A DNA stretch of 64,000 nt from Girardia tigrina (lineage: Eukaryota): contig MQRK01250390.1 of the NCBI GenBank assembly GCA_001938485.1, forward strand, positions 30,537-94,536. Reading direction: 5' to 3'. This document shows positions 52,101 through 61,100 of this stretch, in pieces. How positions within the stretch are numbered: the stretch's first letter is position 1; each line of letters opens with the position of its first letter. The position numbers were made by a program.

Positions 52101-55100
52101 AGAAAAACTAAGAAAATGTTTTTTATTAAAAAATTTTTAAATAAATTTTTATAATACAATTTAATTAGGTGTTTAAAACTTTAATTAGGTGTTCATATAA
52201 AATTATATTTAAAGTAACATTCTAAAATTAGAGACCGGATTGATACCTTTTTAATACAGACTTTTACATGAAATAATATTACTTACATGTATAGCTTTGA
52301 TATACACCGCAAGTAAAATGAGTTTGACATAAGGTAATTTATTCTCTACATTTCAAACAACAACAGGCGTAGTCTTTGTGACTCATGGAAGTGAGAAGAT
52401 CAAGGATTCATCTACAAATACTGAATTTCGATATCAAAGCATTAGATACACATAGAAGCGGGTTAAGATTATGCCAGATAAAATAAGATAAAGTAAAAAA
52501 AGATAATTCAAGAAAAAATGTGCACAACTGCAAAGATACGTTACGGTATGTATATATGAAGATTTCTGTATTCCTCACATTGACATCGTCTACTAAGACA
52601 ATGTCATGAACTTCACTTTTAATACAAATTCTAGTTTAATGTCATTATTAAAGATTCAAGTAATTGATTTTTTGTTTTATTTATTTTGAATTTTAACATC
52701 TCTAAATTGTATCATTTAATATTTTTTTGTAATAAAAGTTTTTTCTTAGTTAGTTTAGTTTTAATTTAGTGAAATAGAGTTCCTTAATCAGAGAAACCGT
52801 CTGTAAATATCATTTTCAAATGAACGCAGTCGACTGCGAATAACATTCTCAAATATATGAGGCCGAATATCAGTAGCCTAAATAACGTTGTTACTACACC
52901 TAATCGCGTCACACTTAATCGCGTAATATTTATTTTCATGCCACCACCTACTTTATGGAAGTTTTTTTGAAGGGATTAAAAGACTATATGCACCAACAAA
53001 AAGCCTATCTTTTACAAGGTTCAATCAGTGCGATTCAAATTCCTAAAATGAAGCATCGAATGCTTAATACAAGATTATCAGAAGCTTTGACAAATATTGG
53101 AAGAATAGACATGCTTATTTTCTTAAAAGCAATTTGTCCTTTGTCTTATAAATTTAAATAATTGTAAAAAATAATAAATTAAATACGTAATATTAAAGTT
53201 TTGTTTAAATAATCGTTTCTCAAATATTCAAAATCAAGTGTTCGAGTTTGATTGCAGTTTATTTTTGTCATCTATTTTCTCCCTGAATCAACAATGGAAA
53301 ATCATAATCAGTGCATCAATGTTATGAAAAATTCTTGTATTCTAAAGTATGTTGCATGACAATAATTTTCTAGTGAAATTTACCGATATCGATTCTCGTT
53401 TGTTCACGTCAGCAGGCGGATATGCGAATGCTAATCTGTTTCCGTATCGCGAGAACACATATCACTACACACCGCTCATCGCCTATTTGATACTAACGAA
53501 TGTCCTTTTCGGACAATTATTCGGCAAATTGTTGTTTTGTTTGTTTGCTTTGATTTGCGCAGATCTCATGCATTCGATTGGCCGTTTGAACAAATGCTCT
53601 AATATTTGGCCGATCATTTCTGCAATTTGGTTGTTCAATTCGCTTATTTTCACGGTCTCTTCTCGCAGCAATGCCGAATCGTTGTTGGGGATTCTCATTT
53701 TGTCGAAATTTGTTTCTACTACAAACGAATCGAATTGTTTTCTCGGTGATTATGTTCGATTTTGTGTTCATTTCAAGTTATATCTGATCATTTGTTCGTT
53801 CTCGATCTATTTGTATTGTGTGACAATTATCGATTTGTTAACTTGATTTTTCCCAATAGAAATCAAATGAAATTTGCATTTGCTACTCTTGTGTCATTTG
53901 TGCTGATTTCGAGTCTCTTTTAGCAGTTGTATGGATGGGAGTTCATTTACCAATCGTACTTGTATCACGTTTTACGGGTGGATATTAAACATATTTTTTC
54001 AGTTTTTTTACGCTCAATATTTACTATTGATTACTCGTTATAAAGTGATTTTCGGACTTTGTGCTTTTATTCCCCAATTGATAATTCTGTGCTCGTTTAG
54101 TTGGAAACATCGATCGGATTTCAATTTGAGTTGGTTGTTATGTACAATTGGGTTTGTGGCGTTTAATAAAAAATTGGGGAGCGTCACAGTAGTGAATTTT
54201 GAGGTATTCAGACGGCTTCTGATTGGTCGAATTTTTTTGAAACGATTCAAATTTTTGATATATTTTTTTGTTTGGCGCGAACTTTTTTTTGAAATGATCG
54301 AAAGTCGCCATTAAAAATTTTGTATTTTCAAATTATCAGTTAAAATTTTAGTGTTATTTTATTATTTTTCTTTCAAAATTTGACGTTTTTTGGTATATTT
54401 GTCTGTTTGATATCGTCCTTCAACCCGCATGAATGTCCTCAGAATCGATATCGGTTAGAAATCTGTAAAAGTTATTTTAAGCAATGCCAAAGATAAAACA
54501 ATACTGAACTCTTCGATAAAAGACAATAATTCTACGATTATTAATCAAAATCAATTTTATAATGAGCAAAATGTTGACTAAATATTCGAAACGATTCGTG
54601 AGATATTAAATGAAATGAAGGGTGACGGTTTGAATAATGTGGAAATATTGGAATATCGGGGCAAATGCAGGGTGTATTGTTTTGGAAAACGACAATGACT
54701 AGTCGGGCTACAATCGACACTCGAATTTGATTACCTGGATGGATCAGATATGTAATGCCTATGGTTTCATTGAGTCTCTACCGAAAATGCCGTCTTATCT
54801 GGTTATAGACATGTTCGTTAAAGGACAAAATTTGAGTGAGGACACGGAGATTGAGTCTCGAATCGCCGAAAAACAAAATGAGATGATTTTTTATTTGTTC
54901 CTACGACCCTTAGTCCACCCTTCAATCCAGAAGCGCTGCAATCACGTTAGTCCTGCGCCCACTCTGTTGTCAATTATGATGTGATTATAAACTAAATTTT
55001 ATTATAAAAACAAGGTTCTTCTTGAAATAGTTTTAGTGCATTTCGGCACTTTTTTTTTCGGGAAAATTGAACGGGGAGCACTGGTTCATCTGGATTCACG

Positions 55101-58100: not shown

Positions 58101-61100
58101 GGAATGAATAATGGATTATATAATGTATTCATCCAGTGCAGATGTGAGACCAACTTCCCCATTGGCTCTAGACACATATATGTACGAGTTAGATGTGTTA
58201 TCGGGTACACTTAATATTGGTTGCATAATTTTCCTAATCCTAATGTCCCATCCTGTGACAGATTCTGTTTTATCTTCCCAAAAGGGATAAATGTATTTCT
58301 GAATTGAAATGTGAGATTGGAATGTTTTTTAATATACTTTCTATAATAATCAAGAATTGCTGGGAGTATAAAGATGTGATCTGCACATCCATCAGAGGGG
58401 CCTAAGATTTTTTGAAACAACTGCAGCAGATCGTTCTTATTAATCCAACCAATTAGTTGCTTATATAGAAGAGTAGTTAATAATTTATGTATACATTCCT
58501 GCAGAGCGATCTCCACGAAGAAGGTAAATTATATTCTCCATCTTTTTCAAATTTTAAAATCATTAATGTAATATAATTCTTCCAAGCTGCAGGGGTGATA
58601 AAGCCTTCAAGTATTATTTTGAATAGTTGATGGAGAAGAATGCCAGTAGGATCACAATAGAAGATATTTTTGTATGAGATACCACTAATCAAAGGAACAG
58701 ATTTCCCTTTACCACTGAGGTAGTTGACAATCTCTTCTAGAGTAGGGATATGAAAAAAAAGTGTGCCCCCTTTTATAGTACGTAGGATCAAAAACATACG
58801 CTAGTGTGTTCATTTGATTTTGATGGTTATTATTAACAAATGTTGTGAAATCCACAGGTGTCGGATATAAGTCAGCTTTTACAGAAGGAAGGATGTGTTT
58901 TTATTGCAGCCTTCGGATTAGAGTAAATCAAACTCCGAAGTTTGGAGTCAGCCATTCTACCCTTTTTCTCAGGCTTCCATATTCTTGGAAAGAATAGCCC
59001 GTGTTAAGTAGACAGGAAAAACAAAAGTGGTTCGAATGTTGACATAGGACACAGTATGCTTCAACATAGGAGTGATTGAAAGAAAGAAAGTTACGAAGCT
59101 GACATGCTGGAGTGGACCCGAACCCAGGTTGATCAGAGTGTGTCTCAATGTTGAAGGAAGAAAAGACTCTACTGATATCTATAGAGTTGAGATTTAGGTC
59201 AAAAAAGGAATTGTTGAAGGATAAAAGAAAGAGGCATACTGTTGGCCACTGTCAAACTGATTAGATTGGTTTAACCTGTTATAAATTAGTTGCGTAGGTG
59301 CATTAATTAAATTATTTAGTTTATTAATAATTAATTGACGCAATTAAATAAACATGCGATTAAGTATGACGCGATTAAGTGTCAGTAAACCCTAAATAAC
59401 ATTGGACAATTTCTCAAAAAACAAAATATTTATTCTACACAAATTTTCAAATATTTCACCAAGGAAAATCCTCTAAAATATTTCATAGATCAAACAATTC
59501 ATTTTGAGTTCATTTAAATTTAAATAATAAATAAATTAAAAAAATTTCAAAGAAAAACAATTTTTTGTTGCATTATAAAAAATAAAATGACCTTGAGGTA
59601 ATTTTAATAAATGAAATTTATTTTAATATGAAAACGAGTTTTTTTTAATTTTATTATTTTTGAAATTTAGAATATTGCTTTATGTGATTTGAATAGTTTT
59701 TATTAATGAAAGTTTGTGGAGAGAATCTTATTTGAGATTGTCGATTGTAAAGAAATTATGTGTGGATGCGACTTGGGGAATTCTGTCCGGAAAGAATTTT
59801 GAATGAAATAAAATTTTTATTAAAAGGTTTTGTAATAGAATTCAAATTTTTTATAAATTTCAGACGCAATATAAAATGAAATTATCAATGGATAATTTAA
59901 TAAACAATTCGATGATAAGTTGTAACCATAAAAATTCTAATTCATCTTGTATCATGAATTTAATCAAGTATTAACCTACTTTTATGCAAAATAAAACGGA
60001 AAAATGTTCTAATCTTAAAAGAAACGTTTATAAATCATAAACAAATTATTAGAAATGCAAGTGCTATAATTTTTAAGCGATCGTTGATTTAATTCTCGAA
60101 TTTTATAAGTTATTGTGTGTTATGCATTTTACTTTGTAATTTGATATTATTTCATTTACCGTAATTTCCGTATTATAAGCCGCACATTGCCTGCTTTTCC
60201 CAAAAAAACATTATAAGCTATAACATTATATAAAAAAACATTATAAACATTATAAAACAAATAAAAACATTATAAAAACGTATAAGCCGCAACTCTTAAA
60301 TTATGACTCATTTCAGGTTTATAAGTGCGGCTTATAGTTCGGAATTTACGGTATATACATTCATATTTCTATTACGGATGTTCTATGTAGTTTAATGAAG
60401 AATTTGTAAATTTCTATTTTTTTATAACAATTCTTCAAAAGTATCGCAAGTGGAGGAAAGATTAAGATCGACCAAGAAAATAGAATTTCATTAAAGTGTT
60501 TAAGATCAATAAACAACAAAATATTACACAAAATAATGAAAATAATTTATATAAACTTCACATTTGTAAGAAATAATAAAGGACTAAAAAAATAAAATAT
60601 GTAATAATTCTCAAAATTTATTATTGAAAGAGAAATGTACTCTTTATAAATATAATATTAGAAAACAAGAAGCAATAAAAGCTTTTGATGACTTCTTGAT
60701 CATACATCTTTTCAAAATTATATGTAAAAACGATTTTTAATAACCAATAAAGATGGAAAAGCAAGTTCTAAAGAATTTCTAGATTTATTAAAGAAAATGG
60801 AAAGCTTTATGAGAGAAACTTTTGACAATCAAAATAGCAATTTGGAAAAAAAATTGGACGAAAAAAATATTCAGTTTCTTTCAAAATATATTTTAAACGA
60901 AGAAATAATATATACGAAAAAGAATTTCTCAAATCGAAAATATTAACACAAATGATCAGTTATGTTTAACAAGAAAAGGAAGAGTTTATAAACACTCAAT
61001 CCAAAACTTAAACAATAAAAATATTTGATTTCAATTATTTTTATTAAATGAATAATGATAATTATATTTCTGGTGTCTTTCTAATTATAATAAATAATAA

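What the first reader, a model, noticed from the sequence alone, without database searches (positions are those of the whole stretch)
52887..59391. Pack-MULE-like element carrying host PIG-M and sedoheptulokinase sequence
Seen: matching ~37-bp inverted ends built of tandem TAATCGC motifs, a perfect 9-10 bp TSD, and a transposase reduced to its C-terminal remnant. Inside lie about 1.75 kb of host DNA (near-complete PIG-M, a short spacer, the SHPK 5' part), then an RLE retroelement with its own insertion. Established: TIRs with 9-11 bp TSDs define Mutator elements, and gene-fragment-carrying Pack-MULEs are mainly known from plants. Inference: gene capture by a MULE in a probable animal genome, supported by the second SHPK fragment in this window. 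Alternatives: the cargo arrived as a 3' transduction of the RLE element (it lies on that element's 3' side), or by later unrelated insertion.
Basis: partly seen in the sequence, partly recalled or inferred. Interest (0 to 1): 0.8.

Follow-up and report, generated by a model that had tools for sequence, protein, structure and literature searches.

The report
Dead Mutator transposon holding host-gene fragments
A decayed Mutator-type jumping gene in an AT-rich, probably animal genome encloses broken pieces of two host genes and a broken retroelement; gene-carrying Mutator elements are rare outside plants, but capture by the element itself is not shown here.

Summary
Window 52887-59390/91 is one insertion. 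Its inverted ends match over about 46 bp (27-nt core 93%), and a 10-bp direct repeat, CCTAAATAAC, occurs only at the two flanks.

Next to the left end lie the last 72 codons of a FLYWCH+MULE transposase of about 470 aa. So this is an internally deleted Mutator-like element.

Inside are:
- A GPI mannosyltransferase 1 (PIG-M) pseudogene covering about three quarters of the protein.
- A 150-bp spacer.
- The first ~130 codons of an FGGY sugar kinase. The sedoheptulokinase label is not shown.
- On the other strand, a badly decayed R2/NeSL-group retroelement split by about 1.6 kb of AT-rich DNA.

The kinase fragment is dispersed: a second copy lies at window 338-749 and three more versions are in public protein data. 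The second copy has no such ends and no retroelement beside it. A (TA)n run starts exactly where the retroelement abuts the inside copy.

My best reading is that host DNA entered the element at the DNA level and the retroelement nested later. Confidence is 0.45. The genome-wide census that would decide this was not possible. Interest is moderate; this would be a new member of a known kind.

The parts
52877..52886 (.). Left copy of the target-site duplication, CCTAAATAAC (9 or 10 bp).
   Evidence: Read directly. Only two occurrences in the window, both at the flanks.
52887..52935 (+). Left terminal inverted repeat with two 15-bp subrepeats holding TAATCGCG.
52934..53161 (+). Remnant of a FLYWCH+MULE transposase: the last 72 codons and the stop. 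It is open over its length and joins the left end directly.
   Evidence: tblastn of P0009 maps residues 398-469 of 470 to 52934-53149. BLASTP gives 30/72 identities, E 3e-16. Of 77 relatives, 73 carry PF10551 and 58 also carry PF04500.
53162..53345 (.). Unassigned AT-rich stretch. It is either the MULE 3' untranslated part or the PIG-M upstream region and degenerate first codons.
   Evidence: No family hit for 53178-53324. GC is 0.23 for 53162-53289. Assignment by reading only.
53346..54276 (+). GPI mannosyltransferase 1 (PIG-M) pseudogene without recognisable introns. It lacks the C-terminal quarter and has at least two frame changes and at least one in-frame stop.
   Evidence: PDB 9wno_A 'GPI mannosyltransferase 1': E 7.4e-22, chain residues 26-187 of 431. 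Pfam PF05007 profile 1-57 (E 5e-4) and 119-215 of 259 (E 5.7e-6). The second piece has no PDB hit.
54277..54428 (.). Spacer between the two host gene pieces, probably the kinase gene's own upstream region.
   Evidence: No protein signal in three frames. Paired T-rich direct repeats (family D2). Assignment inferred.
54429..54816 (+). First ~130 codons of an FGGY-family sugar kinase (xylulokinase/sedoheptulokinase-like), pseudogenised. Three frames are used, with at least two in-frame stops.
   Evidence: P0086-P0088 map here at 72-92% identity. FGGY_N by Pfam on the sister copy, E 0.003. P0086 matches xylulose kinase 2itm at E 1.9e-6 and XylB TIGR01312 at E 6e-15. Atlas: 22 of 30 and 29 of 30 hits are FGGY_N.
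54817..54977 (+). Non-coding tail of the repeated kinase block (GC 0.43). It is shared with the second copy up to its last base and holds a 45-bp indel.
   Evidence: blastn of 54879-54977 against 663-749 gives 78.8%. Alignment. GC. No Rfam or tRNA match.
54978..55495 (-). Presumed 3' untranslated part of the retroelement.
   Evidence: Lies between the last protein match and the kinase block. No similarity to the block tail: 41 of 300 shuffles reach the score. Boundary inferred.
55496..59245 (-). Broken ORF of an R2/NeSL-group (RLE-type) non-LTR retroelement, 5'-truncated.
- Covers 704 of 1255 residues of relative P0001.
- 6 in-frame stops.
- 5 frame changes between successive matches.
- 3 unmatched internal runs (463 aa).
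- 1 nested insertion.
   Evidence: P0001: E 3.2e-23, 65% identity. tblastn outer bounds and counts. P0001 carries RVT_1 and a weak Ulp1-like C48 match. It matches R2 proteins, including their C-terminal zinc-finger/endonuclease part. Window 55754-56038 aligns to P0001 residues 1052-1139, E 4e-23.
56310..57899 (.). AT-rich (GC 0.25) insertion of unknown nature inside the retroelement ORF.
   Evidence: P0001 residues 926 and 955 flank it. No duplication or inverted ends found. 0 of 8 stretches gave a credible Pfam hit. Short tandem repeats.
59246..59345 (.). Unassigned AT-rich stretch between the retroelement's 5' end and the right end. It holds a third, degenerate copy of the end motif.
59346..59390 (-). 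Right terminal inverted repeat.
59391..59400 (.). Right copy of the target-site duplication.
338..749 (+). Second, shorter pseudocopy of the kinase block, from codon 29 to the same last base. It is followed at once by a (TA)n run at 750-792.
   Evidence: blastn 87.7% and 78.8%. Alignment. tblastn from residue 29. Flanks unrelated to those of the inside copy.

Best explanation
This is a dead, non-autonomous Mutator-like element of the FLYWCH+MULE kind. It inserted once at CCTAAATAAC.

An internal deletion left only about 46-bp ends and the last 72 codons of its transposase. Between that remnant and the right end it acquired about 1.7 kb of genomic, not processed, host DNA:
- a 3'-truncated PIG-M copy;
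- the upstream region plus first ~130 codons of an FGGY kinase.

The most likely route is filler DNA copied in during double-strand-break or gap repair with template switching. That is the route proposed for Pack-MULEs and animal Pack-TIRs.

Later, an R2/NeSL-group retroelement inserted in the opposite orientation at the edge of that cargo, probably into a (TA)n run. It was then itself split by about 1.6 kb of AT-rich DNA. Everything has since decayed and nothing here can work today.

Shown: the ends, the duplication, the identity of each piece, and their order. Inferred: the route of entry, the order of events and the (TA)n target.
For: - One insertion: inverted ends and a flank repeat that occurs nowhere else in the window.
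- MULE origin and internal deletion: homology to transposase residues 398-469 starts where similarity between the two ends stops.
- DNA-level, two-locus cargo. PIG-M stops at Pfam profile position 215 of 259. Only 152 bp then separate it from the kinase start codon. That is too little for the missing quarter plus an upstream region. The kinase piece brings non-coding sequence on both sides.
- Retroelement nested later. The second kinase copy runs to the same last base and there begins a (TA)n run with no reverse transcriptase nearby. It looks like an unoccupied site.
- RLE elements commonly target repeats and microsatellites (PMC4640811, passages).
- Animal TIR elements do pick up host DNA, mostly by gap filling (PMC8277862, abstract and passages).
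Against: - No second copy with the same ends was available, so movement or capture by the MULE is unproven.
- The only other kinase copy in view is outside any such ends.
- The host DNA does not sit at the transposase deletion junction. At least two rearrangements are therefore needed.
- The cargo lies exactly on the retroelement's 3' side, as 3' transduction would predict.
- No (TA)n remnant is recognisable at either retroelement junction in the inside copy.
- The stretch after the retroelement's 5' end does not continue the second copy's right flank: 283 of 300 shuffles reach the score.
- The parental genes were not seen, so microhomology at the junctions is untested.
Confidence: 0.45

Rival explanations
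1. The kinase block, with or without the PIG-M piece, is a dispersed repeat. It spreads by some carrier other than this MULE, such as another mobile element, retroposition of a read-through transcript, or segmental duplication. It landed inside an already dead MULE by chance, as happens in transposon graveyards.
For: - At least five versions exist: two in the window and three different short proteins in public data at 79-91% identity.
- The two window copies share the same right end but differ at the left (codon 1 versus codon 29). Their flanks are unrelated. A shared 3' end with variable 5' ends, followed by a simple repeat, is the usual mark of retroposed copies (established knowledge).
- The window is full of nested elements.
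Against: - No carrier was found around the second copy: no duplication or inverted ends, no RNA family or tRNA, and no A-tail or polyadenylation signal at the shared end.
- The inside copy holds upstream non-coding DNA and a second gene piece. A simple processed copy would not.
- PIG-M occurs only here in the window.
Confidence: 0.25
2. 3' transduction. At a source locus the retroelement sat next to the kinase/PIG-M DNA. A read-through transcript carried that flank along, and the whole 6 kb was copied into the MULE in a single event.
For: - The host DNA lies directly on the retroelement's 3' side, on the opposite strand, with nothing recognisable between them.
- One event would explain everything between the transposase stop and the right end.
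- The retroelement is 5'-truncated, as copies made by target-primed reverse transcription often are.
Against: - There is no T-run or repeat at the far end of the supposed transduced stretch.
- The second kinase copy keeps the end next to the retroelement position and lacks the far end. A transduced copy would have to keep the far end.
- No reverse transcriptase lies beside that copy: 0 matches elsewhere in the window.
- The block tail does not resemble the element's own 3' region.
- A text search found 2 papers, and neither title deals with 3' transduction by RLE elements (listing only).
Confidence: 0.15
3. Artefact: the two ends belong to different elements, or the interior is an assembly chimera.
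For: The interior could not be checked against reads. The window has two N runs elsewhere.
Against: The 10-bp flank repeat abuts both ends exactly and occurs nowhere else in the window. There is no N run inside 52887-59391.
Confidence: 0.03

Closest known systems
Pack-MULEs of plants (rice; Jiang et al. 2004, cited in PMC6446971 and PMC8277862; I saw only those citing passages)
   Same: Mutator-type ends, a 9-10 bp duplication, no working transposase, and fragments of more than one host gene inside.
   Different: - The ends are short (about 46 bp) rather than long.
- A transposase tail is retained.
- The cargo is pseudogenised and abuts a nested retroelement.
- Copy number under these ends is unknown.
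- The host is not a plant.
Ssk-FB4, the Drosophila Pack-TIR argued to be a Pack-MULE, and the 370 animal Pack-TIRs (Tan et al. 2021, PMC8277862; abstract and passages)
   Same: Host sequence between TIR-element ends in an animal-type genome, with a 9-10 bp duplication. Gap filling or template switching is the proposed route.
   Different: - FB4 has ends of about 700 bp and an intact, expressed cargo gene with several copies at distinct duplications.
- Here there is one decayed copy.
- That paper found no Pack-MULE in 100 reference genomes.
FLYWCH-bearing MULE groups of Dupeyron et al. 2019 (PMC6446971, Table 1 passage). One example is the Platyhelminthes subgroup with a 9-bp duplication, 42-46 bp ends and SWIM and FLYWCH fingers.
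   Same: The duplication length and end length match. Relatives of the tail carry FLYWCH plus MULE domains.
   Different: No phylogeny was made. Only 72 residues of the transposase survive here. The host was not identified, so this is a lead only.
NeSL/Utopia and R2 clades of RLE non-LTR retroelements (Kojima and Jurka 2015, PMC4640811, passages; Malik and Eickbush 2000, recalled and cited there)
   Same: The relative P0001 has a reverse transcriptase and a C-terminal zinc-finger/endonuclease part, both matching R2 proteins. It also has a weak N-terminal Ulp1-like protease match, as in the nematode NeSL families and Utopia-1_TSP.
   Different: - The Ulp1 match is just under Pfam's cut-off (20.5 against 20.7 bits).
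- That part is missing from the window copy (0 of 104 residues).
- No clade assignment by tree was made.
- The target site is not established.
L1 3' transduction (recalled)
   Same: Flanking DNA lies on the 3' side of a retroelement.
   Different: There is no A-tail and no duplication around the 6-kb unit. The element is RLE-type, for which I found no report of transduction.

Membership tests
Mutator superfamily (MULE) | Terminal inverted repeats | tested here: met
   A 27-nt core at 93% and about 46 bp at 85%.
Mutator superfamily (MULE) | Target-site duplication of 8-11 bp (PMC6446971, passage) | tested here: met
   A perfect repeat of 9 or 10 bp, unique to the two flanks.
Mutator superfamily (MULE) | Derives from an element that encodes a MULE-type DDE transposase | tested here: met
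   Only by the remnant. The tail aligns to residues 398-469 of P0009 (E 3e-16). Of 77 relatives, 73 carry PF10551. The catalytic domain itself is absent from this copy.
Pack-MULE / Pack-TIR | No working transposase between the ends | tested here: met
   Only the last 72 of about 470 codons remain.
Pack-MULE / Pack-TIR | Non-transposon host sequence between the ends | tested here: met
   PIG-M and an FGGY kinase fragment.
Pack-MULE / Pack-TIR | The host sequence was acquired by the element and moves with it: other copies with the same ends and cargo but different duplications, and a parental gene elsewhere | not testable with these tools
   No eukaryotic genome collection was open. The one other kinase copy in view has no end motif near it.
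Pack-MULE / Pack-TIR | The cargo is not simply part of another nested mobile element | tested here: inconclusive
   The cargo abuts the 3' side of a retroelement. The second copy argues against linkage but does not exclude it.
RLE-type non-LTR retroelement (R2/NeSL group) | Reverse transcriptase of the non-LTR type | tested here: met
   Through relative P0001: RVT_1 at E 8.8e-29 and R2 proteins at E 3.7e-42. The window's own stretches gave no RT family in 0 of 10, and no RT or retroelement protein in the 3 stretches searched against PDB.
RLE-type non-LTR retroelement (R2/NeSL group) | C-terminal zinc finger plus restriction-like endonuclease, instead of an N-terminal AP endonuclease | tested here: met
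   P0001 residues 1032-1179 align to the C-terminal part of an R2 protein (i-E 2.4e-4). Window 55754-56038 aligns to P0001 residues 1052-1139 (E 4e-23). Naming this part as the endonuclease rests on recalled R2 domain order.
NeSL clade proper | N-terminal Ulp1-like protease and spliced-leader target | tested here: inconclusive
   The C48 match in P0001 is at E 4.8e-4, just under the cut-off. It is absent from the window copy. No spliced-leader or other RNA gene lies at the junction.
Sedoheptulokinase (SHPK) | A named SHPK relative as the best hit | tested here: not met
   The best named hits are xylulokinase, gluconokinase and glycerol kinase. Only FGGY family membership is shown. The libraries used may hold no SHPK model.
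GPI mannosyltransferase 1 (PIG-M) | Match to the PF05007 family and to solved PIG-M | tested here: met
   26.9 bits against a cut-off of 23.4 for one piece. E 7.4e-22.

The most novel reading that the evidence does not exclude
This copy is one member of a multicopy Pack-MULE family in an animal. On this reading, a FLYWCH-type Mutator element picked up PIG-M and sugar-kinase fragments and amplified them. The three further kinase-fragment versions in public data would then be sister copies, and the copy at 338-749 a broken one. That would be the first clear amplifying Pack-MULE outside plants, apart from the FB4 case in flies.
Probability: 0.2. Interest if true: 0.6.

Novelty: new member of a known kind. 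Interest (0 to 1): 0.4.

Why it matters
Gene-fragment capture by Mutator elements has shaped plant genomes. In animals it is almost undocumented. A survey of 100 animal genomes found 370 host-carrying TIR elements but none of Mutator type, and only the fly FB4 family was argued to be one (PMC8277862, passages).

A Mutator relic with two host gene pieces in an AT-rich, probably animal genome is therefore a useful candidate. If the same cargo recurs under the same ends, it would show that the plant-style process also runs in animals.

As it stands it is a single decayed copy with no present function. Its main value is as a starting point for a census of the source genome.

Tried and rejected
I used single stop-free stretches instead.
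- Pfam on 10 retroelement stretches gave no RT. Searching 3 of those stretches against PDB gave no RT or retroelement protein. The class came only through the relative P0001.
- PDB searches with the two kinase stretches of the window gave no kinase.
- I tested whether the block tail 54817-54977 is a small-RNA gene, as a possible RLE target. It is not: no Rfam match at gathering score for the window, none at E up to 1 for 54400-55500, and no tRNA.
- I tested whether the block tail derives from the retroelement's 3' region. It does not.
- I looked for homology between the two kinase copies beyond 54534/359 at the DNA level. It is not above shuffles. At the protein level it reaches codon 29.
- I looked for the right flank of the second copy continuing after the retroelement's 5' end. 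It does not.
- I found no duplications or inverted ends around the nested 1.6-kb insert, around the second copy, or at the internal junctions.
- P0002, an internally repetitive 381-aa hit, was left out of alignment A2. That alignment used 6 of the 7 hits plus the window stretch.
- I considered a Helitron-type carrier and a tiny-intron reading of the kinase end, by eye only. I dropped both for lack of any matching feature.

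
Full report
**Ends and insertion**

The window is AT-rich (GC 0.21-0.37 per 2 kb) and full of transposon remains. At the stated coordinates there is one bounded insertion.
- Arms 52896-52922 and 59356-59382 are 93% complementary over 27 nt.
- By blastn the ends match over 46 columns at 84.8% (52891-52935 against 59388-59346).
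- The ends are built of a 15-bp subrepeat that holds TAATCGCG. That 8-mer occurs 3 times in 64 kb, always in these ends. The expected count is 1.03, and 4 of 100 shuffles reach 3.
- With the 11-mer and up to 2 mismatches there are 14 matches. This is no more than chance (33 of 100 shuffles). But all four matches with at most one mismatch lie in the two ends, and a fifth, degenerate one lies at 59339.
- CCTAAATAAC abuts both ends, at 52877-52886 and 59391-59400, and occurs nowhere else in the window.

So the two ends belong to one insertion event with a 9- or 10-bp duplication.

**Transposase remnant**

The 80-codon open stretch 52919-53158 gave no Pfam family. A full HMMER search found 7 proteins at E up to 0.001. 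Most are short proteins matched at their C-termini.

I aligned six of those hits with the window stretch (A2; the repetitive P0002 was left out). Searching A2 against longer proteins gave 77 hits among 7999 candidates scored. Of these, 73 carry the MULE transposase domain PF10551 and 58 also carry the FLYWCH finger PF04500. Most are about 470 aa long.

The window stretch aligns to residues 398-469 of the 470-aa P0009, with 30 of 72 identities and E 3e-16. On the DNA this is 52934-53149. Similarity between the two ends stops at this point. An internal deletion therefore joined the left end to the last 72 codons.

**Host DNA**

PIG-M:
- Stretch 53346-53843 matches solved GPI mannosyltransferase 1 (9wno_A, E 7.4e-22, chain residues 26-187 of 431; two further chains).
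- The same stretch matches Pfam PF05007 profile 1-57 (E 5e-4, below the cut-off).
- Stretch 53907-54311 matches profile 119-215 of 259 (E 5.7e-6, above the cut-off). It has no PDB hit.
- The copy is colinear with the protein, so it has no sizeable introns.
- It is broken by at least two frame changes and at least one stop.
- I could recognise no C-terminal quarter in any frame.

Kinase, starting after 152 bp of spacer:
- The sister copy's stretch 370-513 gives FGGY_N at E 0.003, below the cut-off. The other two stretches tried gave nothing.
- It also gives 22 of 30 Atlas hits with FGGY_N.
- A word-based search returned 3 proteins among 6 candidates: P0086, P0087 and P0088, of 108-140 aa, at 79-91% identity.
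- These map to 54429-54816 in the element (residues 1 to about 130) and to 338-634 in the second copy (from residue 29).
- P0086 matches xylulose kinase 2itm (E 1.9e-6) and XylB TIGR01312 (E 6e-15). It has 29 of 30 FGGY_N Atlas hits.
- No named sedoheptulokinase appeared.

**Retroelement (counts and outer bounds only)**

One stretch found P0001, the only hit among 109 candidates (1255 aa, E 3.2e-23).

P0001 carries:
- RVT_1 at residues 485-717;
- a Ulp1-like C48 match just under the cut-off;
- matches to R2 retroelement proteins over the polymerase (E 3.7e-42);
- a second match over the R2 C-terminal zinc-finger/endonuclease part.

On the minus strand:
- 57900-59245 matches P0001 residues 67-926;
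- 55496-56309 matches residues 955-1237;
- there is no match elsewhere in the window.

Relative to P0001, the window copy shows:

| Measure | Value |
|---|---|
| Residues covered | 704 of 1255 |
| Polymerase stretch covered | 86 of 233 |
| Ulp1 stretch covered | 0 of 104 |
| C-terminal part covered | 279 of 301 |
| In-frame stops | 6 |
| Frame changes between successive matches | 5 |
| Unmatched internal runs | 3 (463 aa) |
| Missing at the N-terminus | first 66 residues |

Between the two pieces lie about 1.6 kb of AT-rich DNA (GC 0.25). This insert has no duplication, no inverted ends and no protein signal.

**The second kinase copy**

- 54534-54836 matches 359-666 at 87.7%, and 54879-54977 matches 663-749 at 78.8%.
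- Both copies lose homology at the same base on the right. There the inside copy meets the retroelement's 3' side, while the second copy starts a (TA)n run.
- On the left the second copy is shorter.
- Flanks on both sides are unrelated: 127, 283 and 40 of 300 shuffles reach the observed scores.
- The second copy has no MULE end motif, no PIG-M and no reverse transcriptase near it.

**Weighing the routes**

- The cargo is genomic DNA from two loci or a rearranged locus. It holds upstream sequence and a truncated PIG-M. This fits DNA-level filling during repair, as proposed for Pack-MULEs and animal Pack-TIRs (PMC8277862).
- The second copy looks like a site without the retroelement. RLE elements often target simple repeats (PMC4640811). 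I therefore place the retroelement after the cargo.
- 3' transduction would need the far end to be kept in every copy. The second copy lacks it, and there is no tail signature.
- The dispersed kinase fragment outside any ends keeps an unknown carrier in play.
- My estimates are: capture or filling in the MULE 0.45, other carrier 0.25, transduction 0.15, artefact 0.03.

**What is known**

- Tan et al. report 370 Pack-TIRs in 100 animal genomes and no Pack-MULE among them. They argue that the fly Ssk-FB4 family is one (passages).
- Three papers hold the term Pack-TIR (listing).
- Dupeyron et al. list MULE duplications of 8-11 bp, and a flatworm subgroup with a 9-bp duplication, 42-46 bp ends and SWIM and FLYWCH fingers (Table 1 passage). 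This fits the element here but is only a lead.
- The 2026 arthropod MULE survey does not contain the term Pack-MULE (passages).
- My searches showed no described FLYWCH-MULE with PIG-M or kinase cargo. Supplementary tables of these papers were closed and may bear on that.

**Limits**

Every query was one stop-free stretch in one frame, so whole-gene scores were not obtained.
- No eukaryotic genome, metagenome or viral contig collection could be searched, and cluster membership could not be read. Copy numbers, the empty site and the parental genes therefore stay unchecked.
- The N runs were left as they are.

Noticed in passing
window 338-792: Second pseudocopy of the FGGY kinase fragment (from codon 29), ending in a (TA)n run of about 43 bp. 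It is better preserved in places than the inside copy and has at least one frame change.
   Followed up: yes
window 34186-35032 (+): A second, distant MULE transposase remnant. It matches P0009 residues 112-407 at 25-33% identity (E 7e-24). It has no TAATCGCG-type ends nearby.
   Followed up: partly
window 25104-27692 (-) and 48744-49728 (+): LTR-retroelement (virus-like) coding remains: an integrase zinc finger and RVT_1 on the minus strand, and a zinc knuckle with an aspartic protease on the plus strand. Described only.
   Followed up: partly
window 6842-7687 (-), 4445-5206 (-): Mariner-type transposase ORF with Transposase_1 and HTH_48. A second mariner-like remnant beside it gave no Pfam hit.
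   Followed up: partly
window 21492-21977 (+), 44776-45144 (-): Two pogo/Tigger-like DDE_1 transposase remnants.
   Followed up: partly
window 30653-30931 and 63521-63570: Runs of N. Left as they are.
   Followed up: no
window 56404-56436 and 57872-57895: Two colinear 8-mers in inverted orientation at the two edges of the 1.6-kb insert in the retroelement. This may be chance or the trace of a rearrangement.
   Followed up: no
window 54232-54304: Two T7GAAA(C/T)GAT direct repeats 52 bp apart in the spacer upstream of the kinase start (family D2), next to a CCAAT-like box. Possibly promoter remains.
   Followed up: no
proteins P0003-P0008: Short public proteins that consist mostly of the same transposase tail. 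This suggests that internally deleted derivatives of this MULE kind are common elsewhere.
   Followed up: partly
window 19263-19601 (+), 39818-40159 (-): Two GC-rich open frames that stand out from the AT-rich surroundings. Not examined.
   Followed up: no
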